Below, one piece after another: positions 5,461-58,349 of a stretch of DNA of 64,000 nucleotides. Under the pieces are notes generated by a model. It made no database searches. It was not told the DNA's origin and was given only the letters and a program-made list of their open reading frames with translations. Positions within the stretch are counted from its first letter, which is position 1, and every line of letters begins with the position of its first letter. The stretch spans positions 12,697 through 76,696 of IMG/VR virus record IMGVR_UViG_3300037628_000362; one strand, given 5' to 3'. This DNA is from a virus. Both the position numbers and the translations under genes were made by a program.

Positions 5461-5787
5461 ATGCCATATCCAGTAAAAGACATCGAGCACGGCACTTACG
5501 AGTGGCTGGTACGCGAAATTGCGGGCTATTTATGGGGAAAGTACGACGAAGCCACGCTGGATCACGAGAAGCGCGGAAAGGTTCACTCGATCATCACCAG
5601 CGGGTATCAGCAGTTCCAGAGCCCCCCGCCAATGCCATCCGAGAACGAGCACAAGCCTGCGTCGCCTCCACACCAATGGACTTTCATGCAGCCGCTCGCT
5701 GAAATCGCGCTGGTTCAGGACCAAAAGGAGTACGATCTGCCTGATAATTTCTCGGGTGTAGTCGGTGAATTCACGGTGAGACCATGA
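5461..5787 (+). CDS. N-terminal half of a second adaptor-domain paralog
   Basis: Aligns to the N-half of 4741..5421 (HQWTFMQP/HSWSFLRP; YDLPDNFSGVVGEFT/YPLPTDFAAIIGDFT); SD GAAGGTGA before ATG 5461. Confidence 0.65.
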   Translation: MPYPVKDIEHGTYEWLVREIAGYLWGKYDEATLDHEKRGKVHSIITSGYQQFQSPPPMPSENEHKPASPPHQWTFMQPLAEIALVQDQKEYDLPDNFSGVVGEFTVRP

Positions 5788-7070
5788 TGGTAAACACATT
5801 CTCAACAACCTACGCCTCCGCGGCAATCGTGCCCTCCCCAGGGACCGTGACGGATAAGCATGGCGGCCCGAGTGCCATTGCCATCGTCGATGAGCGGGAG
5901 ATACGTCAACTATCCGCGAACAAGCCCCAGACCGGAACACCGCGGTACTGTGCCCTTCGACCGCTCTTTAGTGATGGCGCGGGCCCACAGAAGTGGGTGG
6001 TCGTATTCTACCCGACACCTAATAAGGACATGGCCGTCGAGTTCCGATACGGAGTTACTCCGCAGCCGCTGTCTGCGGATAATCCGTACCCGATTGGCGG
6101 CCGACAGCACGCCGAGACTCTCTTACAGTCGTGCCTAGCAGTCGCCGAACTACGTGAACAAAAGGAGGCCGGAGCCCAGTCGGCCCGGTTCATGGCAAGC
6201 CTGGCTTCCTCGATCAAGCTCGACTTGGCTACAGCGGCCCCGACCGCCCCCGGGACATGGCCGTTCGAGGATATGCCGGACAGTCTGACAGTCACCAGGG
6301 CGTACCTGAAGCGCCGTGCTGGGCTCCATATGGGCATCGGGGCGAATCAGGGCACCTGGAACCACCACCAGGCCCAGCAGGTCGAACTGGCTGTCCAGAC
6401 CGGCTTGCGTCGTTTTTATACGCCTATTCCATTGCCGGGCGAAAAATCCGCATGGGAGTGGTCATTCTTGTTTCCTGAGGGTAATCTAACGACCGTGACG
6501 GCCAAGGGCGATTACGATCTCCCGGAAGACTTCGCCATGATAGACGGACCAATGACGTATGAGCCCGAATCAAACGTCCTGTACCCAGAGGTCATTCATG
6601 TCGGAGAACACCAATTGCGGTATCGCCGACAGCGTACCCAGGTGAGTAATCGGTCGGAATTGTTCGCGATACGGGTGAAAAACCCTGATGCCGGTACTGG
6701 CACCCGGTATGAGCTGCTTCTCTGGCCGACGCCTGACCAGGAGTACAATATAAAATATCGTTACAAGATTAACCCTGGTTCGCTGTCTGATGATACAGCG
6801 CAGCCGCTCGGCGGGCAACCCCATATGGAATGTGTCATCGCCTCGGTCCTTGCCGCCACAGATGAGATACTAGAGCGCAAGAGCCAATGGGACGCGCGGT
6901 ATTTGCAGTCACTGGCCGCGTCCGTAAGCCACGACAGGAGAGTTAATGCTGCTGGAAGTTACGGCAGGAACGTAGACCGGTCCGACAGGCCATTGCAATT
7001 TAGTATGCCCGATTGGCATGAATGGGACGACAATTTGACCCCGATTAACGGCGTCAGCGGTTACGCCTAG
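5784..7070 (+). CDS. Adaptor paralog: C-terminal half-domain plus one complete adaptor domain
   Basis: FYPTP...NPYPIGGRQHAETLL matches LYPVP...NPIPLGGASHAETIL; then a second full copy (WEWSFL, YDLPEDF, LWPTPD, PLGGQPH). Confidence 0.65.
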   Translation: MMVNTFSTTYASAAIVPSPGTVTDKHGGPSAIAIVDEREIRQLSANKPQTGTPRYCALRPLFSDGAGPQKWVVVFYPTPNKDMAVEFRYGVTPQPLSADNPYPIGGRQHAETLLQSCLAVAELREQKEAGAQSARFMASLASSIKLDLATAAPTAPGTWPFEDMPDSLTVTRAYLKRRAGLHMGIGANQGTWNHHQAQQVELAVQTGLRRFYTPIPLPGEKSAWEWSFLFPEGNLTTVTAKGDYDLPEDFAMIDGPMTYEPESNVLYPEVIHVGEHQLRYRRQRTQVSNRSELFAIRVKNPDAGTGTRYELLLWPTPDQEYNIKYRYKINPGSLSDDTAQPLGGQPHMECVIASVLAATDEILERKSQWDARYLQSLAASVSHDRRVNAAGSYGRNVDRSDRPLQFSMPDWHEWDDNLTPINGVSGYA

Positions 7071-7128: not shown

Positions 7129-7497
7129 ATGGCCAATGAAATCACCGTCAGCGTGTCGCTCAATGGCGAGAAAGGCACGAAAAAGGACCGCCGCGCCTTT
7201 GGGGGTTTGCAGTTCGATATGGCTGGAAATAATTTCATCCATCACACACAGTCAATCGGCACATCCGAAGAGGCACTCGTTATGAGCGGAGATGTTACCG
7301 TTCCTGGGTGGGCCGTTTTCTTCAACCACGATGACACGAATTTCGTGGAGATCCGGCCAGCCACTGGGGTTGCCGACCTCGTTACCGTTCCGCCACAAGG
7401 CCCGGCGTTATTTAAGTTTGCATCGGACGCGACTGCGCCTTTCGCAATCGCTGACACTGCGACTTGTGACCTCGAATATTTGATCTTCGAAGCGTAA
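7129..7497 (+). CDS. Putative virion protein
   Basis: SD AAGGAAG; MANEITVSVSL...FFNHDDTNFVEI, beta-rich. Confidence 0.6.
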   Translation: MANEITVSVSLNGEKGTKKDRRAFGGLQFDMAGNNFIHHTQSIGTSEEALVMSGDVTVPGWAVFFNHDDTNFVEIRPATGVADLVTVPPQGPALFKFASDATAPFAIADTATCDLEYLIFEA

Positions 7498-7544
7498 CCA
7501 CTACCTGCGCCACACCTGAGCGCATTACCAAAAAGGAAAACCCT

Positions 7545-8243
7545 ATGTCCTCACCACATGGAATTCTGAAACGACTGCACACCGAGAAAGTCGGCTACAA
7601 GCAACTCGACCCTGGCGACGCTGGAACTATTCAGCCCGATCGCCAGTTCTCATACTTTCCCGTCGTAAGCGGGGCGTCGGGCCAGACCCTCACGCTGGCG
7701 GATCCGGACTTTGCTGGCCAGGTCACAACTGTCGCCATGAAGACCGATGGCGGCGGTGACATTACAATCACAGCCGACTCGGCCTTCGATCAGGTCGGCA
7801 ATACCTCGATTGTGCTAGGTGACGTAGGGGACTCGATTACCCTTGTCGGCATCGAGGACGGCTCAGACCTGGAATGGCGGACTCTGGCACAGCACGGCAT
7901 CGCTATTTCCGTACTGGGATTCACTCTCGACGATGGTGAGAATATCGCCGTTGGCACGTCTACTGGCACTGAGATTGGCACTGCGGCTGCACAGAAGATC
8001 GGCTTCCATGGGGCGACGCCGGTGATCCAAGCTTCAGCAATGACGGCCGGACATGCGACGGTCACTCAAGCCGGGACTGATAGCGGCGACGTGGCGATCC
8101 AGGCCGCGGTGCAGAATACGGGATACGGGTTTGTTGATGCGGCCGAATTCGAGGCGATTGTTGCGATGGTAAGAAATAATAACGTACGGATGCTAGAGGT
8201 AGAGAATATCCTGGAAGGTAAAGGATTCGTCGCGGCAAACTAA
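7545..8243 (+). CDS. Putative capsid decoration/fibre protein
   Basis: SD AAGGAA; GTxTGTxIGTAAxQKIGFHGATPV motif common in phage virion proteins. Confidence 0.6.
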   Translation: MSSPHGILKRLHTEKVGYKQLDPGDAGTIQPDRQFSYFPVVSGASGQTLTLADPDFAGQVTTVAMKTDGGGDITITADSAFDQVGNTSIVLGDVGDSITLVGIEDGSDLEWRTLAQHGIAISVLGFTLDDGENIAVGTSTGTEIGTAAAQKIGFHGATPVIQASAMTAGHATVTQAGTDSGDVAIQAAVQNTGYGFVDAAEFEAIVAMVRNNNVRMLEVENILEGKGFVAAN

Positions 8244-8255
8244 TAACGTCAATTA

Positions 8256-8362
8256 GCCTGAGCGCTGAACCGGGGCCTTGCGGCGAGTGCGCAACTGCCC
8301 GGCAATCAGAACAGGCGGCAGAGGATAATGGATCCGGGCACTCGCCGGGTCCATTCCTTTGT
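8256..8362 (+). ncRNA. Two adjacent hairpins with complementary loops (kissing-loop element)
   Basis: Hairpin 1 8256-8316, loop GCGAGTG; hairpin 2 8327-8355, loop GCACTCG; CGAGTG and CACTCG are reverse complements. Confidence 0.6.
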
Positions 8363-8375
8363 TCAGGAGGCCCGT

Positions 8376-11300
8376 ATGGCCGAAGAAGGCATCAGGATCC
8401 CGTTCCCGGTCAAGGGCCTGGTCGAGAACTACGCTTTTGAGGAGCAGCCCTCGGGAACCACCGTGGACTGCGAGAACGTCCGCGCCTACGATCCAACGAC
8501 AGGCCGCAGCAGGGGCGGACAGCGTGCCGGAACTAAGAACGTTCTCTCTTCAGCGATCGCCGCCGGTGACATTCAGGCGATTTCCAGCGTCACCTATAAT
8601 CCGGCTCAGTCGAACACCCCAGGCACGACGCTGGAGACCCCAGGCAACCTCGTATTCGAGGACATTGCGTTCAAGACCGATGGAACCAAGCTTTATATCC
8701 TCGGAAGTGACGCCACCCTCGTCGAGCAATACACGATCACCGCCTGGGATGTTTCCACTGGATCGGCTGACAGTAAGACGTTCGATGTGTCCAGCGAAGA
8801 AGGCACGCCAACCGGCCTGTTCTTCCGAGATAACGGCTCGAAGATGTTCATCGTCGGTCGGGCGCAGAGTAAGGTGTTTCAATACACCCTGGATACCGCC
8901 TGGGATGTAAGTACGGCTGTTTACGACTCCGTGAGCCTGGATGTATCTGGCCAAGTCAGTACCATTGATGGAATTTTCATCGGATCTTCCGGATTAAGGA
9001 TGTATCTCGTCTCCGGAAGCACAGTTTATCAGTACAGTATGATTACGCCGTGGGATCTAAATACGGCCGACTACGATAATGTGAGCCTCTCTGTCGGGTC
9101 AACCTCGTACGGGCTGTACTTCGAGGATGACGGCACGACGATGTTCGTGGCTCGTTCCACCAGTGTCGCACAATACGCCCTCTCTACGGGCTGGGCCCTG
9201 AGCACGGCCACCGCACTCGGGTCCATTAACGTCAACGAGGACGACTCGATTCGCGGCATAGCGTTCCAGAGCGACGGCACCACCTTTTACTTGGTTGGCA
9301 GCGAGAATGCCAGGATTTACGAGTACGAGTCCAACGCTGCCTGGAACCTTACTGGTTTCTCGACCTCCGGCACGACGGCCGTGTCAACGTTCGCGTTTGG
9401 TGTCGACGACGTGTTTTTTGACGCCAGCGGGTTACGTATGTACGTGGTGTCGTCAGGGGATGCGGCGGTCTACCAGTACGACCTGACCTTAGCATGGGAC
9501 GTGAGTACGGCCAGCTACACTGAGTTGTCGAAGTCTGTGAGTGCCGAGGACACCGCGCCTACCGGGGTATACTTCAAGAGCGATGGCCTGGTAATGTGGA
9601 TCGTCGGCGACACTAATAATACGGTGTACCAGTACACACTCAGTACCGCGTGGGATGTTTCCTCGGCCAGCTATGCTTCCCTGAGCTTCTCTGTGGCGAC
9701 TCAGACGACATCACCGTCCGGGATCTGGATTCAGTCTGACGGTTCGAAGATGTTTGTATCCGGAACGGCTGGTGGACTCGGTGCCGGCATTTACCGTTAT
9801 AGTCTCTCGCCGGTATGGACTTTCAGTACGCCACCGTCGTATGACACTAATACGCTTGCCGTGGCGGGCGCCCACGACATATACATAAAGGGCAATAATG
9901 GCCGCCAAATATATGTCCTAAAAGACGACGGTCTGACGTACTACAATATGTCAACGGGCTTCGATTTGTCCACCGCAACCGAGTTCACTGACATTAAGAT
10001 AGGGAACGCACAAACATATCGCGGACTCTCTTTTAAGGATGACGGGGGTGCCTTCTTTATCGCCGGTGGAACCACCGAATCTATTTACGGCTATACGCTT
10101 GAGAACAATTGGGACATAAGCCTATACGAGAGCAAGTCGCTTGATGTATCGCCTGACGACACCGACCCAGAGGGACTGACATGGGGCGATAGCGGTAATT
10201 CGTTATACGTCATTGGTAATCAAAACAACCGTGTGTATCGATACACTTGCAGTACGGCATATAGCGTAAATACAGCCTCTCTTGACAGTAACGCCAATAC
10301 GACGGCGAGTGGCCATGGCGGAATAGCCTGGAGTGATGACGGGCTTCAAATGTTCTTCACCGAGACAGGGGGCACTACTGTTCAGCAATGGACGAGCACG
10401 CTACCATGGGTATTTGGATTACCAAATAAAAGCAAAGACATCTCTGGTCAGACTAGTACCGCAGCAGACCTGGCATTCGGTGATAGCGGGAAGAAGCTGT
10501 ATATCATTGATGCGACTAAGGTTTACCAATACAACCTCTCTAGTGCGTTTAATATTGACACGGCCACCTACGTCTCAGGCAATGACCTCTCTATCGCCGC
10601 CGCCCAGGACACCGCTGCCACTGGAGTCGCCATAAGCTCCGACGGATTAAAGCTGTTCGTAGTTGGAACGTCTAATGATAAGGTCCACGAGTATACCCTA
10701 ACCACCGCATGGGACTTATCTACCGCCATCTATTCCAACTACTCGTACGATGTGAGTGAGGAGGACGGGACGCCAACTGGCATTACTTTCAAGTCGGACG
10801 GGTCGAAGTTTTACATTTCTGGGACAGGAAATGACGGGGTATTTCAGTACGATACCCGCAATAACTGGAGCACAGCCGTCCATACCGTACTGACTACATT
10901 ACCACTGGATCTCTCGACGCCACTCCGTAGCGACATTACGTTCAAGACTGACGGAGCAAAGGTTTATGTCGTTAGCGCTGGGAGCGGGATTATCGACGAG
11001 TATAACCTTACTACGCCGTGGCTCGCTAGCACTATATCCGCCTCTATAAATAGTCTGAATGTACGATCGGAGGATATTAACCCGTCCGGCGCATTCCTGA
11101 AGGCAACCGACGGTACGGAAATCTACGTGCTCGGAAAAACGAATGCTTCCGTTTACCAGTATCACCTGTCCTCTGGCTGGGATCTGTCATCGGCAGGAGC
11201 CGTTACGGATACCTTTAGTGTAGCGGCCCAGGATGGTTCTCCGGAAGGAATTTTCATCGGAGACTCTGGTACGAAGATGTATATTCTGGGTGGCTCCGGA

Positions 11301-13721
11301 AACCGAGTATATCAATACACCCTCTCGGTGGCCTGGGAATTAAGCACAGCACCGACGTACGCCAATAAAGCGATCTCACTCGCGGCCGTTGAGACATCTG
11401 CGACGGGCATCTACTTCGAGGACGATGGCACGACAATGTTCATCATCGGGCAGGCGACGGGTGCGGTTCATAGATACACCTTGTCTGTTGGCTGGGATGT
11501 GAGTACGGCAACCTACGATGGTCAGGCGATAGATGTCTCTGCCGAGGAAACAGCACCCACTGGTGTAGGTTTCCATTCAGACGGAAGTAAAATGTTCACC
11601 ATCGGGACGGTCGGCACGAAGCTGTATGAGTACGGTCTGTCATCTGTCTGGGACCTTATTGACTTCACAGACGAGTTTACTGACATCGTTGAAACAGTCC
11701 CAACTGGCATTGCCTTCAGTGCGGACGGCCTAGTGCTGTACGTTGTTGGTAGCGACACAGCAAAGGTGCGCCAGTACGACCTCACGACTGCCTTTGATAC
11801 GCAGACTGCCACCTACGACGATCTGTTTGATCTATCCACTGAGGGCACGAACCCTCAAGCCGTCTCTGTCAATGCGGCTGGTACTAGGCTGTTTATCCTG
11901 GATGGCACGAATGCCAGTATTCAGCAATACACGATATCAAGCGGCGATGTCGCTACGGCCAGCGTTGATGCCGCTGACGTTCTGGACGTGTCTGGTGATG
12001 ACATTGCACCAACTGGCATGGTGTTCGGATCGTCCGGCACGAAAATCTATGTCACGGGCCCCACGACTACTGCCACGGTTTACGAGTATACGACAACCGC
12101 CGACGATCTGAGTACCGCTACGGCAACCGGCGAATCAAAGGTTGTCTCAGCCGAAGACACTTCGCCACAGGCTATAGCCCTGAACACCGACGGGACGAAG
12201 ATGTTTGTCCTAGGAAGCCAAAACAATCGCGCCTACGAATACGCACTCGGAACGGCCTATGATCTGAGCGGAACGGTAACGTACAGCAATGCCAATCATT
12301 TCGTCGGAGGTCAGGATACGTCACCCACCGGACTGGCCTTTAATGCCGTCGGGGATCGGATGTTCATGATCGGCACAGTCACCGCTCAAGTCTGGCAGTA
12401 TTCTGTCATAGCCTTCGATTTTACCGCCTTCCGGCTCCGGAGTATCCTGGCGGTTCACGAGGGAGACATCTACCGGGTCGAGTCAGGAACGGCCCTTCTT
12501 GCCGGTGGCGGGAGCGACGCACTAGACGATACGCTCAACGTGTACGTCTATGGCCAGGAGTTCTTTGGTTCGGTCTACTTCGTTGACGGCACAAACTACG
12601 TCGTGCATAACGCGGCCGGGGACACTACATTGACCTGGACTGCAACCGCCGGAACGCTGCCGGTCAATAGCACTGCGACTGCCCGCCTAATCGCCCTATA
12701 CCGTGGCCGACTTGTTCTGTCCGGCGTAGTAGGAGACGATCACAACTGGTTTATGAGCGCCGCGGGAAATGCACTGGACTTCGACTACAGCCCGTCGACC
12801 GTAACACAGACCCAAGCGACATCCGGAAATAACTCTCCGGCGGGCCTCGTCGGGGACGTTATCACTGCCCTAATCCCGGTGACCGACGATCTGCTGCTGT
12901 TCGGATGCGATCACTCGATTTGGAGAATGACTGGCGACCCTATGGCTGGTGGCCAGATCGATCTAGTGAGTGACATAACTGGCATGAGCTTCGGGCGGGC
13001 TTGGTGCAAAGACCCCAGCGGGAGAGTGTACTTCTTTGGCAGGCGGGGCGGCGTCTTCTACACTAACGGGAGTGAGGTAAAGCGGATCAGCTCCCAGGCA
13101 ATTGAGGAGCGGCTCGCGGTTATCGATCTCTCGGATCACCGAGTCGTCATGGTGTGGAACGACAGGTTCATCGGTCTGGACGTGTTCATAAGCCCGAACG
13201 TCGCTGCAAGCTCCACCACCCACTATTTCTACGATGTTCGGAACGAGTCATGGTGGCCGGTGGCGTTCACTGACACGGACCACAATCCCCTTGTGGCGGT
13301 ACTGATGGACGGGGACGACATTGACGATCGTGCCGTCTGGATGGGTGGTAGAGATGGCCAGATCCGCAGTTGGGACGCGACGGCCGACGACGACAACGGC
13401 ACTGCGATCAGCAGTTACGTGGTTTTGGGCCCCATTGGAGCTACTGACAGAGAGTCTATTATCACAGAACTTTCCTGTGTCCTTTCACAAAACAGTGACA
13501 CTGTGCTATACTCGGTTTTAGAGGGGAACTATGCTGAAGTGGCCTCGGCGGCCTCGGCGTCGTTCTCAGGGTCGTTTACGGCCGGCAGAAGCACATTCCA
13601 TTACCCCCGCACGAAGGGGTATTCACAATACGTTAAACTGGAAAACTCGACCCTCAACACCGCATGGGCGATTGAGGAGATTCGGGCAAGGCTGGCTCCG
13701 GCCGGCAGAAGGACATTCTGA
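8376..13721 (+). CDS. Tail nozzle (P22 gp10 / tail tubular B-like) with a large inserted beta-propeller repeat region
   Basis: SD GGAGG at 8366-8370; N-term IPFPVKGL...NVRAYDP..RSRGGQRAG; C-term YRGRLVLSG...WFMSAAG...ITALIP...IWRMTGDP; 25 ~50-aa repeats in between. Confidence 0.75.
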   Translation: MAEEGIRIPFPVKGLVENYAFEEQPSGTTVDCENVRAYDPTTGRSRGGQRAGTKNVLSSAIAAGDIQAISSVTYNPAQSNTPGTTLETPGNLVFEDIAFKTDGTKLYILGSDATLVEQYTITAWDVSTGSADSKTFDVSSEEGTPTGLFFRDNGSKMFIVGRAQSKVFQYTLDTAWDVSTAVYDSVSLDVSGQVSTIDGIFIGSSGLRMYLVSGSTVYQYSMITPWDLNTADYDNVSLSVGSTSYGLYFEDDGTTMFVARSTSVAQYALSTGWALSTATALGSINVNEDDSIRGIAFQSDGTTFYLVGSENARIYEYESNAAWNLTGFSTSGTTAVSTFAFGVDDVFFDASGLRMYVVSSGDAAVYQYDLTLAWDVSTASYTELSKSVSAEDTAPTGVYFKSDGLVMWIVGDTNNTVYQYTLSTAWDVSSASYASLSFSVATQTTSPSGIWIQSDGSKMFVSGTAGGLGAGIYRYSLSPVWTFSTPPSYDTNTLAVAGAHDIYIKGNNGRQIYVLKDDGLTYYNMSTGFDLSTATEFTDIKIGNAQTYRGLSFKDDGGAFFIAGGTTESIYGYTLENNWDISLYESKSLDVSPDDTDPEGLTWGDSGNSLYVIGNQNNRVYRYTCSTAYSVNTASLDSNANTTASGHGGIAWSDDGLQMFFTETGGTTVQQWTSTLPWVFGLPNKSKDISGQTSTAADLAFGDSGKKLYIIDATKVYQYNLSSAFNIDTATYVSGNDLSIAAAQDTAATGVAISSDGLKLFVVGTSNDKVHEYTLTTAWDLSTAIYSNYSYDVSEEDGTPTGITFKSDGSKFYISGTGNDGVFQYDTRNNWSTAVHTVLTTLPLDLSTPLRSDITFKTDGAKVYVVSAGSGIIDEYNLTTPWLASTISASINSLNVRSEDINPSGAFLKATDGTEIYVLGKTNASVYQYHLSSGWDLSSAGAVTDTFSVAAQDGSPEGIFIGDSGTKMYILGGSGNRVYQYTLSVAWELSTAPTYANKAISLAAVETSATGIYFEDDGTTMFIIGQATGAVHRYTLSVGWDVSTATYDGQAIDVSAEETAPTGVGFHSDGSKMFTIGTVGTKLYEYGLSSVWDLIDFTDEFTDIVETVPTGIAFSADGLVLYVVGSDTAKVRQYDLTTAFDTQTATYDDLFDLSTEGTNPQAVSVNAAGTRLFILDGTNASIQQYTISSGDVATASVDAADVLDVSGDDIAPTGMVFGSSGTKIYVTGPTTTATVYEYTTTADDLSTATATGESKVVSAEDTSPQAIALNTDGTKMFVLGSQNNRAYEYALGTAYDLSGTVTYSNANHFVGGQDTSPTGLAFNAVGDRMFMIGTVTAQVWQYSVIAFDFTAFRLRSILAVHEGDIYRVESGTALLAGGGSDALDDTLNVYVYGQEFFGSVYFVDGTNYVVHNAAGDTTLTWTATAGTLPVNSTATARLIALYRGRLVLSGVVGDDHNWFMSAAGNALDFDYSPSTVTQTQATSGNNSPAGLVGDVITALIPVTDDLLLFGCDHSIWRMTGDPMAGGQIDLVSDITGMSFGRAWCKDPSGRVYFFGRRGGVFYTNGSEVKRISSQAIEERLAVIDLSDHRVVMVWNDRFIGLDVFISPNVAASSTTHYFYDVRNESWWPVAFTDTDHNPLVAVLMDGDDIDDRAVWMGGRDGQIRSWDATADDDNGTAISSYVVLGPIGATDRESIITELSCVLSQNSDTVLYSVLEGNYAEVASAASASFSGSFTAGRSTFHYPRTKGYSQYVKLENSTLNTAWAIEEIRARLAPAGRRTF
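8658..12434 (+). repeat. 25 tandem ~50-aa beta-propeller blade repeats
   Basis: Consensus PTGxxFxxDGxKMxxxG...VYQYxLxTAWDVSTAxY, counted 25 times in the translation. Confidence 0.85.
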
Positions 13722-37681: not shown

Positions 37682-37931
37682 AACCGGCGTAATGGTAATG
37701 AAAGACGGGAAGGCGTGGGGGATCGTCTACGAAGATGGCCAAAGTGCCTGCTCTGGATGGATTGATGTTGAATCAGCTCCGATTCACGATCCGAAATACT
37801 GCAAGAAGACAACCGACGTTACCTTTGAGCACAGTCACCACACGACGGAGTTGGAAACGGCAAAACTTGTTGAAGTAAAAAGGATAACGACCGTGGAAAT
37901 TCTCGAACAGAACGATGAGGGAAGTAGCTAA
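37671..37931 (+). CDS. Hypothetical protein
   Basis: SD GGAGG; coupled to the recombinase gene. Confidence 0.55.
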   Translation: MKIETGVMVMKDGKAWGIVYEDGQSACSGWIDVESAPIHDPKYCKKTTDVTFEHSHHTTELETAKLVEVKRITTVEILEQNDEGSS

Positions 37932-38533
37932 TGCCTAGCTTCACCCAATACATGACGCTCAATGAGATCCACACGGTCCTAGAAGACCTCCGCCTGCGGT
38001 CTATCTGGAGCGTATCGTCGGCCGTCAACCGGATCATCGTGCGGCTCTCGCTCGGCGCTGGGCTCCGCTGCATGGAAATCGTTGGCCTCAATGTAGGTGA
38101 TCTCGTTCTCGGTGGAAGTTGCCCGGTCATCAACGTACGTGGCGAGACAGCGAAGGGCGGCAAGCCGAGAAAGGTGCCCTTGTTCTGGGACCGGCAGACA
38201 CTTGCCGACCTGGCTAACTGGCAACGGCACCGCACTGAGGTCATGGGTGCCACGCGTGGAGATCCATTCGTTTGCGGAGTCTGCCAGACAAATCGAGGTG
38301 GCCGGCTGATACGGTCGATGGCGGCAAAGCGATGGAAGACAGCGATTAAGTGTCTGGGGACCGATCGGGTGTCTCAACTGTCGATCCACTGCGGCCGGCA
38401 CAGCTTTGCCTCGCACGCCGTTCGAGCTGGTCGTACACCGGCAGAGTTACGCGACGCCCTGGGCCACGCGAATATCACCACCACTGAAACCTACCTGCAC
38501 TCGATCCCGACTGAGTGTGGGGATTTATTCTGA
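37931..38533 (+). CDS. Tyrosine recombinase (catalytic domain only)
   Basis: R (GLRCME), K (AKGGK), HxxR (HCGRHSF), LGH, Y (TETYLH). Confidence 0.9.
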   Translation: MPSFTQYMTLNEIHTVLEDLRLRSIWSVSSAVNRIIVRLSLGAGLRCMEIVGLNVGDLVLGGSCPVINVRGETAKGGKPRKVPLFWDRQTLADLANWQRHRTEVMGATRGDPFVCGVCQTNRGGRLIRSMAAKRWKTAIKCLGTDRVSQLSIHCGRHSFASHAVRAGRTPAELRDALGHANITTTETYLHSIPTECGDLF

Positions 38534-39013: not shown

Positions 39014-39307
39014 ATCTATAACCCACTGAGCTTTTGCCTTATATACAGTCGTCAAGCCATTTTCTCGCGAAATTGTGAAATAAGTTCCGTATTTACTCCA
39101 AGTCAGGCTACCCACTTCCTTACGGACTTCAGGCTCCGCGTCATTCGTGACCCAAATCGGTGGCCACGGCTCGGGCTCAGGTCGGCAGACGGGCTTCGTG
39201 ATTGTAATGACGATGAAGTCTCCATGGTCGACGACTTCGTATTCATCTGCCCCAAAGACAGACTCGTCATCATCCTGATTGGTTATTGAAATACGGTACT
39301 TACTCAT
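38957..39307 (-). CDS. Hypothetical protein
   Basis: SD GGAGA after the T-run that ends the upstream RNA. Confidence 0.5.
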   Translation of the reverse strand: MSKYRISITNQDDDESVFGADEYEVVDHGDFIVITITKPVCRPEPEPWPPIWVTNDAEPEVRKEVGSLTWSKYGTYFTISRENGLTTVYKAKAQWVIDSPERLATFCDRDIPRHVV

Positions 39308-43458: not shown

Positions 43459-44248
43459 TGACGCGGTGACATCATTGAAAATGCCTACGCAGCGGCGCGC
43501 CTGGCCCGCAAGGCACTTTGCGAATTTTTCCCCAATATCCATATCGGACTAGCCGCCTCAATCTCGATCTGAAGACTCTCGGGCAGTTGCGCATTCGCCG
43601 TGGCCCACTGCGAGATAACTGACAGTAGTACATCGTCTGGAACCTCAGAAAGAGTTCTGCAGAGCAGGGACCGGGAATCTTTGAGTTCTTTATTTTCCAG
43701 CCGCAGATCGTCGAGCTCGCCGACGGTATTTTCTGTTACCAGTAAAAGACGAGCTGACGACACGGCCAGGTCTTTCTCTTTTTGCTTCCGACTCTCCAGG
43801 GCCAGGTTAATTTTTTCCTTCCTCGCTGCAATCCGCTCCATCGCCGCTAATATCGCCTGTTCAACCTCGCCTTGCGTAGGCTGCTCAGAGTCCACGATAA
43901 ATGGTTCGTTTCCCTGACAGCCGCTGGCATTGAGCACGCCGTCGGATGTGAAGTTGAATCCGCCGAGAGGGCCGTAATGTCCGTCGCCATGCTGCAACAG
44001 CGCCCGGCGGATCGGCTCCGACAATCTGGTCACTTCCACTGCCAGATCCACCCTTCTGGGGATATTATTCCCAGTCCTTAATCGTTCGTCATGCACCCAT
44101 TTGTCTGATCGGCAAACCTTGACAGTGATTTCCATCATAACCTCCGTGTAAAGTAGGTGTCCGGGCCAACATAGTGTTGGCCCTGTGTATCCCAGATCGG
44201 CATTCTCAAACGTGACGCGGTGACATCATTGAAAATGCCTACGCAGCG
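43459..44248. repeat. Identical 36-bp direct repeat (43459-43494, 44213-44248) at the 3' ends of tandem paralogs
   Basis: TGACGCGGTGACATCATTGAAAATGCCTACGCAGCG occurs twice. Confidence 0.9.
43485..44138 (-). CDS. Hypothetical protein (paralog 2)
   Basis: MEITVKVCRSDKW..ERLRTGNN..; SD GGAGGT. Confidence 0.7.
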   Translation of the reverse strand: MMEITVKVCRSDKWVHDERLRTGNNIPRRVDLAVEVTRLSEPIRRALLQHGDGHYGPLGGFNFTSDGVLNASGCQGNEPFIVDSEQPTQGEVEQAILAAMERIAARKEKINLALESRKQKEKDLAVSSARLLLVTENTVGELDDLRLENKELKDSRSLLCRTLSEVPDDVLLSVISQWATANAQLPESLQIEIEAASPIWILGKNSQSALRARRAAA

Positions 44249-44874
44249 TTCCTGATCTCCACGGTGCCGAAGACCCATTTTTTCGGCGACGCATCCTCAA
44301 TGATTTGCATAACTTCTTGCTTCGACTTCCCACTGGGATTCGGCACCTTAGAAACCGCGTCCAACTTAACCTCTTTCGGGACGCCGGAAAGGAACTCAGA
44401 AAGGATGTTTCGCTGCTTTTCGATCTCAGCAGCGGCTTCTTCGGCATGGCCTCTGTGCTTTCGTAGAGCATCAAGCTCCTCGGCCAATAAAACGCGAGCC
44501 GTGGCCAGGTCTTCGGCAATCTTCGCCTCGGCGACCTTTGCGCCGAATGCCTTTTCTTTCCTCAGCTCGATTCGCCTGTAGGCGTCGAAGATTGCCCGAT
44601 CAACCTGGCCAGTAGTAGCCTCAATGGCGTCCAGGATGAAATGCTCGATTCCCTGGCCAGCGGTAATGGCGATCCGGTAGTCCTTGTCGTAGTTAAGGCA
44701 ACCGATACTGCGATACTGACCGCCGGATGCTGACAGGAGAATCTGTCGCGAAGGTTCGGTAAGATTCGAGACCTTAACGACCTTTAGATAATCCTTGTTC
44801 GTATTTTCGCTAGTCCTTAAATTTTCCCTCTCAATCCAATCGTCGGTCCGTTGCAGCGTAATCGTGATTTCCAT
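44239..44874 (-). CDS. Hypothetical protein (paralog 1)
   Basis: MEITITLQRTDDW..ENLRTSEN..; SD GGAGG. Confidence 0.7.
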   Translation of the reverse strand: MEITITLQRTDDWIERENLRTSENTNKDYLKVVKVSNLTEPSRQILLSASGGQYRSIGCLNYDKDYRIAITAGQGIEHFILDAIEATTGQVDRAIFDAYRRIELRKEKAFGAKVAEAKIAEDLATARVLLAEELDALRKHRGHAEEAAAEIEKQRNILSEFLSGVPKEVKLDAVSKVPNPSGKSKQEVMQIIEDASPKKWVFGTVEIRNAA

Positions 44875-45042
44875 ATCAATCCTCCAAGAGAGTAGGAATC
44901 GAGGCCGGCGACATGCTAGCCCCTCGATGATAGTATCGGTATCTGCCATGGTGTCACATTACAAAGAGTGCGCATAAAGAACCCCCGGCCAAGCGGTGGA
45001 GCAGGCCGAGGGTTGAAAGGAAGTGACAGTATTTGTTATCGG

Positions 45043-54861: not shown

Positions 54862-55158
54862 TCAGTTTTCTCCTACTGGTTCGTAGGTTATCGGAAAGAT
54901 ATCTGGCTTGCACGGGTATATTTCTCCCTGAACGCCCTGAATGATCCAGTCTCCCCAGGATATAAGTTGCTGGCCCTCTAGCGTCCCGATCGACAGTGTT
55001 CCGCCTTCGCCTTCATCTGTTGGATAGAGTGATCCCTCTGACCCGCGCTCTTTGTCCCAGGCTTGATGAAGCCATTCCGGCCAATCTGTGCCATCTCTAC
55101 GGCGATGGGGCGTCATCTGGAAGGCTTCGACAATGACGGGTCGTTTGCGATATTTCAT
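54862..55158 (-). CDS. Conserved phage protein (YRKxPVxxEA...TLEG...YPCKPDIF family)
   Basis: MKYRKRPVIVEAFQ, IGTLEG, GDWIIQGVQGEIYPCKPDIF. Confidence 0.8.
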   Translation of the reverse strand: MKYRKRPVIVEAFQMTPHRRRDGTDWPEWLHQAWDKERGSEGSLYPTDEGEGGTLSIGTLEGQQLISWGDWIIQGVQGEIYPCKPDIFPITYEPVGEN

Positions 55159-55426: not shown

Positions 55427-55897
55427 CTATATCACCCATGTAAAAATCTTTGAATCGCCTGAGAACTTGGCCGTACTGACATCGTAGGCGGGGTCCAGGT
55501 TAAATTTGAACACGGTTTTATTTTCGCTATCAGGGGCGTACAGCGTCTTACCAGAATCATCGAACGCTATGCCCGTGGGTAACAATGACTTAGCAAACTG
55601 GTCGGTCCATCTCGCTTTCTTATAATGCTTCAGAGTCGAGTTCACGAAGTCGTCGACTTGTTCTGGCATAAGGCGATCCTCGTCATCGATCGGAGGTGTG
55701 CCCCAAAAGCCCACCTTCTGAGTCGTGTCCGTGCCGACCATGATGTTCGCGGCGCCTGTCTGCCCGGCCAGTCGCTCCAGGACATGGTTCACGTGCGCGT
55801 CAACTAACTCAGGCTTGAGCATTCCGCGGTCCGGCCATTGCGAGGGCCTGACTGTGGCGTCTGGCTCGAACGTGCTGAAGGGGATTAGTTCGGTCAT
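55427..55897 (-). CDS. Mosaic protein containing fragments of virion proteins
   Basis: Segments match 7545..8243 and one blade of 8376..13721; SD GAGGA. Confidence 0.7.
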   Translation of the reverse strand: MTELIPFSTFEPDATVRPSQWPDRGMLKPELVDAHVNHVLERLAGQTGAANIMVGTDTTQKVGFWGTPPIDDEDRLMPEQVDDFVNSTLKHYKKARWTDQFAKSLLPTGIAFDDSGKTLYAPDSENKTVFKFNLDPAYDVSTAKFSGDSKIFTWVI

Positions 55898-56041
55898 TTC
55901 TTCCTCTGCGGTCGTTCGATCTTAATGAAATGTCCGTTGCGTAGGATGGCGGCCGGGCACATTATCAAGAACCACGTTCCGAGCCAGACCCAGAACGAAC
56001 TGAAAATGAACTCCAAAACCTCAAGCATCGATATTCTCCTT

Positions 56042-56389
56042 TTAGTCGGGTAGGTCTCGTTTCCGCCTGTTCTTTAGGTCGATGTCGGCACCGCAGTGCT
56101 TACATAGCTTTGTCTTCCTGGCACACTCCAGACAGAGCACGTCGACATTAGTGCTTCCGGATCGGATCATCTCCTCGCAGTGAGCACATTGCCGTTCAGT
56201 CATAGAGGCACCACCAATCCTGGCCGTCTTAAAACAGATGGGGCACTCTTGCACAGCGAGGCGATTTTTGCGGTCAATATCATTGTCGACACGATCTAGG
56301 AATGCGCGTTTCGACTCGATAAGGTGCTTGGACTCGTCGTTTCGTCGCTCGATATATGATCGATCAATTTTCTGTCGGTGTGCTTCCAT
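56042..56389 (-). CDS. Cys-rich Zn-finger protein (paralog of 57984..58349)
   Basis: CPIC..CAHC..LCLECA..LCKHCGADIDL. Confidence 0.7.
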   Translation of the reverse strand: MEAHRQKIDRSYIERRNDESKHLIESKRAFLDRVDNDIDRKNRLAVQECPICFKTARIGGASMTERQCAHCEEMIRSGSTNVDVLCLECARKTKLCKHCGADIDLKNRRKRDLPD

Positions 56390-56749: not shown

Positions 56750-57298
56750 TCAGTGCAGCGGAAAGGCGGACACGACTATCTCCGGCTCGAAGTAGACCGG
56801 ACGCGGGTTCCCTTCCTTGTCGATCATCATCAGCCAGGTGGCAGACGATGACGTTGGCATAAACAGCCCATTCGGGTCAGCCTGGGGAAGCGTGCCCATC
56901 TCGAAGCCGACGCGCCCACCATTATAGTCGACAATCTTCTCTGGGTTTGTGAACTGCGCCGAGAACGGTATGCCGTATCCGATGCACTTCCCCACGAAGA
57001 ACAGCTTGCCGTGGTAGTCGCTCTTGATATAGGCGTAGCAAACCAAGTCTTCCTTGTCGCAAAGCTCGTAGATCAGCTTCATTAACTTTCGTTGCTGGTA
57101 GTTGGTTACGTTCGGAAATCCGATCTGCCGGTTTGCCTCGCCCATGGACTTGGCAGTCTGTGCCGCCTGTTGCTGGTCGGCAGTCTGCGTTCCGAATCCA
57201 CACCCAGTAAGGCTTATGGCAGCGAGACCTGCCAGTAAGAGGACTAGCCCTCCGATAAGACACTTTTCACGCAATGTTCCGCTGTACACTACCATCAT
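56750..57298 (-). CDS. Phage lipoprotein
   Basis: Lipobox LTGC; CIGYGIP..QFTNPE, LPQADPNGLF..SSSATW, PVYFEP. Confidence 0.7.
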   Translation of the reverse strand: MMVVYSGTLREKCLIGGLVLLLAGLAAISLTGCGFGTQTADQQQAAQTAKSMGEANRQIGFPNVTNYQQRKLMKLIYELCDKEDLVCYAYIKSDYHGKLFFVGKCIGYGIPFSAQFTNPEKIVDYNGGRVGFEMGTLPQADPNGLFMPTSSSATWLMMIDKEGNPRPVYFEPEIVVSAFPLH

Positions 57299-57983: not shown

Positions 57984-58349
57984 TTAATGGCGATTCTCTT
58001 GAGATTCATCTGGTATCTCCCATTCTCTATTATCTAGGTCTAGGTCAATATCAGCACCACATCGCCGGCAGAGAAAAGCCTTGCAAGCGCACTCTAAGCA
58101 GAGCACGCCGTCACTGTGTATTGTGTCAAGACAATGCGCACATTGTCCACCAGCGAACACACTAATCGTCAAGCCCCCAACACTAGCTCCGTAGCGGCAG
58201 ACAACGCAAAGCATCTCGATAAGCCGTGGGAGCTGGTCAGGATCGTTGTCCATATTGGCAATAAACGCCCGCCGCTCCTCGATGATGTCACGGAGCAGCG
58301 TGGTCCTGATCTTAATGTGTTCGTCGTCGATTCTGATTCGTCTTGGCAT
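57984..58349 (-). CDS. Cys-rich Zn-finger protein (paralog of 56042..56389)
   Basis: CVVC..CAHC..LCLECA..LCRRCGADIDL. Confidence 0.65.
   Translation of the reverse strand: MPRRIRIDDEHIKIRTTLLRDIIEERRAFIANMDNDPDQLPRLIEMLCVVCRYGASVGGLTISVFAGGQCAHCLDTIHSDGVLCLECACKAFLCRRCGADIDLDLDNREWEIPDESQENRH

What the first reader, a model, noticed from the sequence alone, without database searches (positions are those of the whole stretch)
55427..55897. Accessory protein stitched from fragments of the phage's own virion proteins: possible immune decoy
Seen: this 156-aa gene lies over 40 kb from the structural genes, on the opposite strand. It contains three recognisable pieces. (a) NIMVGTDTTQKVGFWGTPPI matches NIAVGTST...AQKIGFHGATPV of 7545..8243. 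(b) LPTGIAFDDSGKTLYAPDSENKTVFKFNLDPAYDVSTAKF is one isolated blade matching VPTGIAFSADGLVLYVVGSDTAKVRQYDLTTAFDTQTATY of the nozzle. (c) Two copies of LxPExVDxxVNxxL; the second (PEQVDDFVNSTLKHYKKARWTD) looks to me like a major-capsid N-terminus, which is unverified because the capsid gene is outside the window. Knowledge: several defence systems sense virion proteins (CapRel and Lit sense capsid; Avs senses terminase/portal; DSR2 senses tail tube). Inference: a concatenated-epitope decoy that titrates host sensors, or a dominant-negative assembly inhibitor against related phages.
Basis: partly seen in the sequence, partly recalled or inferred. Interest (0 to 1): 0.8.

Follow-up and report, generated by a model that had tools for sequence, protein, structure and literature searches.

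The report
Orphan gene built from virion-protein pieces
A small gene found only in this uncultured marine-sediment phage carries a faithful copy of the first 24 residues of the phage's major capsid protein, plus one propeller repeat and one short motif from two other particle proteins. It looks like a real mosaic gene and may mimic assembly contacts, but its function is untested.

Summary

**What the ORF is.** The 156-aa ORF at 55427..55897 (-) is intact. It has a Shine-Dalgarno site and an ATGA overlap with the upstream gene. Its codon usage matches the phage's long genes.

**The four similarities.**
- Residues 76-99 match residues 3-26 of the major capsid protein (MCP), which is encoded 4.4 kb before the window. 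A profile built only from relatives' MCP N-termini hits this segment at E 3e-12. All conserved N-arm residues are kept, and 22 nt are identical to the phage's own MCP gene.
- Residues 107-148 are one unit of the 25-fold ~48-aa propeller repeat of the 1797-aa tail protein (E 2e-11).
- Residues 54-70 match a conserved motif of the 232-aa protein's family, weakly (E 1e-3).
- A degenerate second N-arm-like copy lies at residues 22-40 (7 of 2000 shuffles).

**Distribution.** No homologue of the whole protein, or of residues 1-100, was found in billions of proteins. Thirteen related phage contigs were searched with the protein, eight of them also with the profiles, and none has such a mosaic.

**Function.** Function is untested. 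My best guess is an assembly-interface mimic that presents the capsid N-arm helix to that helix's normal partners. A sensor decoy is less likely, and functionless recombination debris is not excluded.

The parts
55427..55897 (-). P0001, a 156-aa orphan ORF and the mosaic gene itself
   Evidence: Codon-usage score is 0.25 bits/codon in frame and negative in the five other frames; long genes score 0.19 +/- 0.08 and spurious nested ORFs at most 0.19. It is the only member of its cluster among 5.8 billion clusters.
55900..55907 (-). Shine-Dalgarno-like AGAGGAAG a few bases before the ATG. The ATG overlaps the TGA of the upstream ORF (ATGA).
   Evidence: Read directly from the sequence.
55894..56028 (-). 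Upstream 44-aa ORF with a hydrophobic helix. Its stop codon overlaps the P0001 start codon.
   Evidence: Its codon-usage score is 0.20.
55775..55834 (-). Residues 22-41: a degenerate first copy of the N-arm-like helix motif (L-x-P-E-x-V-D-x-x-V-N)
   Evidence: Internal alignment score 38, reached by 7 of 2000 shuffles; not detected by the N-arm profile. AF2 places a helix at 29-45, at low confidence.
55688..55750 (-). Residues 50-70: match to the conserved G-T-x-x-x-Q-K-[LIV]-G-F-x-G-x-x-P motif of the 232-aa protein's family
   Evidence: Profile E about 1e-3 among 478 ORFs, the top hit after the 232-aa protein itself.
55601..55672 (-). Residues 76-99: copy of major capsid protein residues 3-26 (the N-arm helix)
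   Evidence: All invariant and near-invariant N-arm columns of the MCP family are kept (L3, P5, Q7, D10, V12, T15, W24, T25, D26).
55639..55660 (-). 22-nt stretch identical to codons 7-14 of the phage's own capsid gene. In the genome the two copies form an inverted repeat about 60 kb apart.
   Evidence: It is among the longest exact repeats in the record. Relatives' capsid genes differ at third codon positions here.
55448..55594 (-). Residues 102-150: a single unit of the ~48-aa propeller-type repeat
   Evidence: 3201 proteins among 1.84 billion representatives match at E<=1e-3; for nearly all of the 150 listed, the best stretch lies in or ends in this segment. Weak Pfam SGL and NHL hits below cut-off.
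7545..8243 (+). 232-aa virion-module protein (P0002). Its residues 130-160 carry motif (a).
   Evidence: One family member carries a Phage_cement_2 domain.
8328..13721 (+). 1797-aa tail protein (P0003) with 25 tandem propeller-type repeats at residues 109-1372

Best explanation
P0001 is a real, lineage-specific chimeric accessory gene. Its recognisable parts are short contact-type segments of three virion proteins, not whole domains.

Shown:
- The mosaic composition.
- Precise retention of the capsid N-arm, residues 3-26.
- An intact reading frame with normal translation signals.

Inferred:
- The protein acts as an assembly-interface mimic.
- Its N-arm-like helix (residues 78-94) occupies the site that the real capsid N-arm occupies during assembly. 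In solved procapsids that site is the C-terminal helix of the scaffolding protein and neighbouring coat subunits.
- The single propeller unit and the short motif give it further handles on the 1797-aa and 232-aa proteins.

Two outcomes are possible. The protein may be carried into procapsids or virions as a low-copy passenger or joint. Or it may compete with coat protein and disturb capsid assembly, for example that of co-infecting relatives that share the conserved N-arm. I rate the two outcomes about equally likely.
For: - The N-arm copy starts and ends exactly at the conserved N-arm (MCP residues 3-26) and keeps every invariant residue of the family.
- Outside the 22-nt identical core, synonymous sites are saturated (pS 0.92) while pN is 0.38. 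This is what selection on the peptide would produce.
- A conserved C-terminal helix, the usual coat-binding element, is present in the scaffold-like protein encoded just upstream of the MCP and in all relatives.
- In phage 80alpha the scaffold's C-terminal helix binds the coat N-arm helix, and the satellite protein CpmB competes at the same site (PMC5644958).
- P0001 is the only accessory ORF in the genome that matches virion proteins.
- Motif (a) was found in none of the eight related records scanned with profiles, and the propeller repeat in only one of them. P0001's pieces therefore match this phage's own virion repertoire.
- Coding signals are good.
- An independent assembly of the run carries the stretch with no differences.
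Against: - No binding evidence of any kind.
- The gene lies in the minus-strand block with a DNA methylase, a 5'-3' exonuclease and an RNA ligase. That suggests early or middle expression, which is unusual for a virion component.
- A competitor of the conserved N-arm would also hit the phage's own assembly.
- It is a singleton with no relatives, so selection on the gene as a whole is unproven.
- The pN/pS pattern could have been inherited from MCP-to-MCP divergence if the piece was recently captured from another phage's capsid gene.
Confidence: 0.4

Rival explanations
1. The ORF is a functionless or very young chimera. It would be a by-product of illegitimate recombination or gene conversion that joined fragments of structural genes inside the variable accessory region. 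It may be translated but has no selected role.
For: - It is a singleton among 5.8 billion clusters and 1.84 billion representatives.
- It is absent from viral and metagenome contig scans and from 13 related records.
- AF2 finds no confident fold.
- A single propeller unit cannot form a propeller on its own.
- The 22-nt identity shows DNA exchange with the capsid gene.
- About half of the record encodes virion proteins, so three virion-derived pieces are not very improbable by chance.
Against: - The 156-codon frame is intact. Codon usage is above the genome mean in every segment and above all spurious ORFs.
- It has a Shine-Dalgarno site and an ATGA overlap with the upstream gene.
- The flanks of the 22-nt core are saturated at synonymous sites, yet all conserved N-arm residues survive.
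- All pieces are in frame and in sense.
Confidence: 0.3
2. The protein is an immune decoy or sensor blocker. Expressed early, it would display peptides of capsid, tail and decoration proteins. These would occupy host sensors of virion proteins without triggering them.
For: - Its position in the early or accessory block fits.
- Several pieces from different virion proteins in one small protein would suit multi-target titration.
- Many defence sensors recognise the capsid, nozzle and other core virion proteins (bioRxiv 10.64898/2026.01.04.697583).
Against: - Avs7, a structurally characterised MCP sensor, wraps the folded A and P domains and the E-loop over 3,700 square angstroms. P0001 has only the 24-residue N-arm and a single repeat.
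- From general knowledge, binding of the trigger normally activates such sensors, so a mimic would be expected to set them off.
- My two literature searches turned up no phage decoy built from virion-protein fragments; only one candidate paper was opened.
- The host is unknown.
Confidence: 0.12
3. The shared 22-nt sequence is the functional element, as an RNA or DNA site bound by a regulator of capsid-gene expression. The peptide similarity would then be secondary.
For: The perfect 22-nt identity is flanked by saturated divergence. It lies at codons 7-14 of the capsid mRNA, near the translation start.
Against: - The peptide similarity extends well beyond the 22 nt and follows the family's conserved residues.
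- Relatives do not conserve these nucleotides.
- This idea does not explain the propeller unit or motif (a).
- Both copies are sense in their own mRNAs, so they cannot pair with each other.
Confidence: 0.05

Closest known systems
SaPI1 CpmB (satellite capsid-size redirection protein)
   Same: A small accessory protein that copies a short helical assembly-contact segment of a phage morphogenetic protein and competes at the coat N-arm / scaffold interface (PMC5644958).
   Different: CpmB mimics the scaffold's C-terminus and is encoded by a satellite. P0001 copies the other side of that interface, the coat N-arm. It is encoded by the phage itself, carries two further virion-derived pieces, and has no shown activity.
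SaPIbov5 Ccm (capsid protein homologue that redirects assembly)
   Same: An accessory gene derived from a major capsid protein (PMC8569155, abstract seen).
   Different: Ccm is a full-length HK97-fold homologue that co-assembles. P0001 has only residues 3-26 of the fold.
T4 internal proteins with a capsid targeting sequence, and P1 Dar proteins (from my own knowledge; a P1 DarA/Hdf paper was only listed)
   Same: Accessory proteins encoded away from the head genes. A short peptide that binds the assembly core takes them into the head.
   Different: The T4 tag is N-terminal and is removed by the prohead protease. The P0001 motif is internal. No protease was identified here and packaging is not shown.
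Propeller-repeat giant proteins of the SGL / lactonase / NHL type in phages and bacteria
   Same: Residues 107-148 are a typical unit of this repeat.
   Different: Those proteins have 5 to more than 50 units. P0001 has one, which cannot close a propeller alone.

Membership tests
HK97-fold major capsid protein (NCBIfam NF033394 capsid_maj_Podo) | N-arm segment with the family's conserved residues | tested here: met
   A profile of 11 relatives' N-termini hits residues 76-99 at 40 bits, E 3e-12.
HK97-fold major capsid protein (NCBIfam NF033394 capsid_maj_Podo) | E-loop, P domain with spine helix, and A domain | tested here: not met
   Similarity ends at MCP residue 26. There is no NCBIfam hit for P0001. 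P0001 is not a capsid protein.
Beta-propeller repeat proteins (Pfam SGL PF08450 / NHL PF01436 type) | Sequence match to the repeat unit | tested here: met
   Repeat profile E 2e-11. 3201 database proteins match; for nearly all of the 150 listed, the best stretch lies in or ends in this segment.
Beta-propeller repeat proteins (Pfam SGL PF08450 / NHL PF01436 type) | Several tandem units able to close a propeller, and a score above Pfam's gathering cut-off | tested here: not met
   Only one unit is present. SGL scores 17.6 bits against a cut-off of 26.3, and NHL 13.3 against 20.
Family of the 232-aa virion protein (P0002; one member fused to Phage_cement_2) | Conserved junction motif G-T-x-I-G-T-x-x-x-Q-K-L-G-F-x-G-A-T-P-V | tested here: inconclusive
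   There is a 17-residue match at E about 1e-3 among 478 ORFs. It lacks the 8 residues G-T-E-I-G-T-A-A.
Family of the 232-aa virion protein (P0002; one member fused to Phage_cement_2) | N-terminal D-P-G...W-R-V domain and C-terminal T-Q-A-G-T-D-S-G-D-V-A-I-Q domain | tested here: not met
   No similarity outside the motif.
Assembly-interface mimics of the CpmB type | Physical competition with the mimicked protein for its partner in the procapsid | not testable with these tools
This needs biochemistry or cryo-EM.
Anti-defence decoys or sponges | Binding to and neutralisation of a host defence sensor or its signal | not tested
   The host and its defence systems are unknown. P0001 was not scanned against PADLOC or any anti-defence library; the Pfam, PHROGs and NCBIfam scans gave only two weak sub-threshold Pfam hits on the propeller unit.

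The most novel reading that the evidence does not exclude
A phage encodes a small early protein assembled from contact peptides of its own capsid, decoration-like and tail proteins, under selection. It uses this protein as a multi-interface mimic. It would either sabotage particle assembly of co-infecting relatives, blunt host sensors of virion proteins, or ride into the capsid on a borrowed coat N-arm. That would be a way of making accessory genes by recycling interface peptides of structural genes.
Probability: 0.3. Interest if true: 0.85.

Novelty: new variant of a known kind. Interest (0 to 1): 0.55.

Why it matters
If functional, this would be the mirror image of satellite piracy proteins such as CpmB. 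A phage-encoded protein would copy the coat side of the coat-scaffold interface and add handles taken from two other virion proteins. It would show that short interface peptides of structural genes can be recycled into new accessory genes. It also suggests a simple genome-wide screen: look for copies of a capsid N-terminus outside the capsid gene. If it is only debris, it still documents in-frame, sense-oriented shuffling of structural-gene fragments and a gene-conversion patch between genes 60 kb apart in a phage genome.

Tried and rejected
- **Structure prediction.** AF2 on P0001 alone gave mean pLDDT 39, and on the MCP with 12 sequences pLDDT 35. No fold search was worth running.
- **Homologue searches.** These were word-indexed searches on the whole protein and on residues 1-100, the exhaustive HMMER search, phage-record tblastn, and viral and metagenome contig scans. 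They returned only the protein itself or repeat-bearing giants. Only the top 150 of 3201 HMMER hits are visible, so a weak full-length relative below about 93 bits could be hidden.
- **Synteny route.** Neighbouring genes (the 182-aa lipoprotein-like ORF, the 98-aa ORF and the 5'-3' exonuclease) have no relatives in the related contigs or in IMG/VR.
- **Population variation and expression.** One run holds the stretch, probably the source sample. No RNA holder is listed. The contigs show no variants. No dN/dS was possible.
- **Possible fourth piece.** L-I-P-F-S-T near the N-terminus resembles L-I-P-F-G-T in a 177-aa head-module ORF, but E is 5.5 and that ORF has no relatives for a profile. I treat it as chance.
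- **14-nt match.** A 14-nt match to the core at window 39227-39240 lies antisense inside another ORF. I treat it as chance.
- **Blade donated in trans.** The idea was that P0001 completes a propeller of the 1797-aa protein. That protein has 25 detectable units, which does not clearly call for one more. This is untestable here.
- **Parent blade.** No particular blade is the parent: nucleotide identity is 38-56% to all of them.

Full report
**The object.** The window is bases 12,697-76,696 of a 76,696-bp IMG/VR virus record, rated about 77% complete. The one public run that holds it is a marine sediment metagenome.

The ORF at 55427..55897 on the minus strand encodes 156 aa (kept as P0001). An AGAGGAAG Shine-Dalgarno-like site lies a few bases before its ATG. 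The ATG overlaps the TGA of an upstream 44-aa hydrophobic ORF as ATGA.

The gene sits in a tightly packed minus-strand run of small genes, downstream of a terminator-like hairpin at 56708-56689. The same minus-strand block holds a DNA methylase, a 5'-3' exonuclease and an RNA ligase, so it is an early or middle accessory region.

The plus-strand structural module lies far away:
- an SU10-type adaptor at 5784..7070;
- the 232-aa protein at 7545..8243;
- a 1797-aa repeat protein at 8328..13721;
- a 2013-aa internal virion protein.

**Is it a gene?** I trained a codon-usage score on the 24 longest ORFs.
- P0001 scores 0.25 bits per codon in frame, and between -0.18 and -0.61 in the other five frames.
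- The long genes average 0.19 +/- 0.08.
- 24 spurious ORFs nested in long genes reach at most 0.19.
- Every segment of P0001 scores positive.

An independent assembly (Logan) of the run carries the stretch in a 13.4-kb contig with no differences. A local misassembly is therefore unlikely, although this is probably the same sample the record was built from.

**Piece (c), the capsid N-terminus.** A six-frame search of the whole record found a match for residues 75-100 at record 8333-8410 (E 6e-6).

That position is the start of a 347-aa ORF (record 8330-9373, 4.4 kb before the window). It directly follows a 356-aa acidic scaffold-like ORF. It is the major capsid protein (MCP):
- NCBIfam capsid_maj_Podo, E 2.9e-22 over residues 9-345, 79.3 bits against a cut-off of 80.
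- Its nearest ESM Atlas clusters are capsid proteins, including SU10_MCP.

P0001 residues 76-99 align without gaps to MCP residues 3-26, 14 of 24 identical, E 4e-8.

Fifteen related viral contigs have MCPs 52-63% identical. P0001 residues 76-99 hit the MCP N-terminus in 12 of the 13 records that could be searched. A profile of the 11 relatives' N-termini, built without the phage's own MCP, scores the segment at 40 bits, E 3e-12 among the 478 ORFs of the genome.

All invariant or near-invariant columns of the first 26 residues are kept: L3, P5, Q7, D10, V12, T15, W24, T25 and D26. The similarity stops exactly where the N-arm motif ends.

**DNA level.** Codons 80-87 of P0001 and codons 7-14 of the MCP gene share 22 identical nucleotides. 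This is among the longest exact repeats in the record. Relatives' MCP genes differ at third positions in this stretch, so the identity is specific to this genome.

Outside the core, synonymous sites are saturated (pS 0.92, 9.5 of 10.3 sites) while pN is 0.38. The simplest reading is an old copy whose peptide has been kept, plus a recent gene-conversion patch.

There is one caveat. If the piece was captured recently from another phage's MCP gene, the low pN would reflect selection in the MCP context rather than in P0001.

**Piece (b), the propeller unit.** The 1797-aa protein has 25 tandem units of about 48 aa between residues 109 and 1372. A profile of them hits P0001 residues 107-148 at E 2e-11. 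Pfam sees the same region weakly as SGL/NHL, below cut-off.

The repeat family is very large. 3201 of 1.84 billion representative proteins match P0001 at E<=1e-3. The 150 best listed are mostly giants with up to 56 matched stretches, and nearly all match best within or ending in residues 102-150.

No particular blade of the phage's own protein is the parent: nucleotide identity is 38-56% to each.

**Piece (a).** The pairwise match to the 232-aa protein is short, 8 of 17 identical. It scores E 0.24 against the proteome, though it is the next hit after the capsid and propeller proteins.

Thirteen relatives of the 232-aa protein show that the matched stretch is a conserved junction motif of a modular family. 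One member carries a Phage_cement_2 domain. A profile of the motif ranks P0001 first after the 232-aa protein itself, at E about 1e-3, whether or not that protein is in the profile. This is modest support.

**The first copy of the helix motif.** Residues 22-40 align to residues 71-89 with a score reached by 7 of 2000 shuffles. The N-arm profile does not recognise this copy. It is a degenerate duplicate at best.

**Uniqueness.**
- No homologue of the whole protein or of residues 1-100 was found.
- In an all-against-all comparison, P0001 is the only accessory ORF that matches virion proteins.
- I scanned about 290 kb from eight related records with three profiles. The N-arm profile hit only each MCP, motif (a) hit nothing, and the repeat occurred in one record only.

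P0001's pieces therefore match the particular virion repertoire of its own genome, and the sampled relatives have no such mosaic. These records are fragments, so absence is not proven.

**What it may do.** AF2 gave no confident fold. At low confidence it places helices on both N-arm-like segments (29-45 and 78-94), a hairpin on motif (a), and strands in the repeat unit.

All the recognisable pieces are short contact-type elements rather than domains. In HK97-fold phages that have a separate scaffold, the coat N-arm helix is where the scaffold's C-terminal helix docks. The satellite protein CpmB competes at this site in the 80alpha system (PMC5644958).

The scaffold-like protein here, and those of all relatives, end in a conserved helix-like segment after a basic linker. 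I therefore favour an assembly-interface mimic, at confidence 0.4. The N-arm copy would engage the scaffold or coat, with the other two pieces as extra handles. The outcome would be either co-assembly as a passenger or joint, or interference with assembly.

**Alternatives.** The decoy idea is possible but weaker (0.12). Avs7, a structurally characterised MCP sensor, wraps the folded A and P domains and the E-loop (bioRxiv 10.64898/2026.01.04.697583), and P0001 lacks all of them. From general knowledge, trigger binding normally activates such sensors.

A functionless young chimera remains a serious rival (0.3), because the gene is a singleton and nothing shows expression.

**Verdict.** Mimicry of assembly interfaces is a known kind of mechanism, and this would be a new variant of it if functional.

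Noticed in passing
window 5429, 19360, 25111, 29254, 50362, 50588, 61952 and others (record 6258, 18125, 32056, 37807, 41950, 63058, 63284, 74647): A 15-18-nt palindromic word recurs at many sites in the record. It appeared as the main family of repeated 16-mers in my repeat scan. It matches the GTGACA-ACG-TGTCAC sites in earlier notes of this scan.
   Followed up: partly
window 56042..56389 (-) and 57984..58349 (-): Two paralogous small Cys-rich zinc-ribbon-like proteins, 42% identical (E 1e-22), flank the P0001 neighbourhood.
   Followed up: partly
window 56750..57298 (-): A 182-aa ORF with a lipoprotein-type signal ending in L-T-G-C, followed by a 111-aa ORF with an N-terminal membrane helix. 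These are possible surface or exclusion proteins. No family hit.
   Followed up: no
window 43485..44138 (-) and 44239..44949 (-): Adjacent paralogues of 217 and 236 aa, 35% identical (E 1e-29), share a 36-nt exact repeat, the longest in the record. This is another sign of gene conversion in this genome.
   Followed up: no
window 8328..13721 (+): The 1797-aa tail protein has 25 very regular ~48-aa propeller-type repeats. The repeat family has thousands of members, including proteins over 6000 aa with 56 matched units.
   Followed up: partly
window 37931..38533 (+): A 200-aa tyrosine recombinase (Phage_integrase, E 8e-19) sits next to a dATP/dGTP diphosphohydrolase-like gene. This hints at a temperate lifestyle or a site-specific recombination function.
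   Followed up: no
window 54862..55158 (-): A 98-aa ORF whose DNA is 70-82% identical over about 80-160 nt to genes in Mycobacterium, Gordonia and other phages. One of these is annotated 'pgdyg protein'. It is a widely shared small accessory domain.
   Followed up: no
record 7189..8259 (before the window) and relatives L009-L023: The scaffold-like proteins of this phage group share an acidic N-terminal half, a basic S-x-K/R-R-R linker and a conserved C-terminal helix (I-A-N-x-P-E-I...Q-E-E-N-G).
   Followed up: partly
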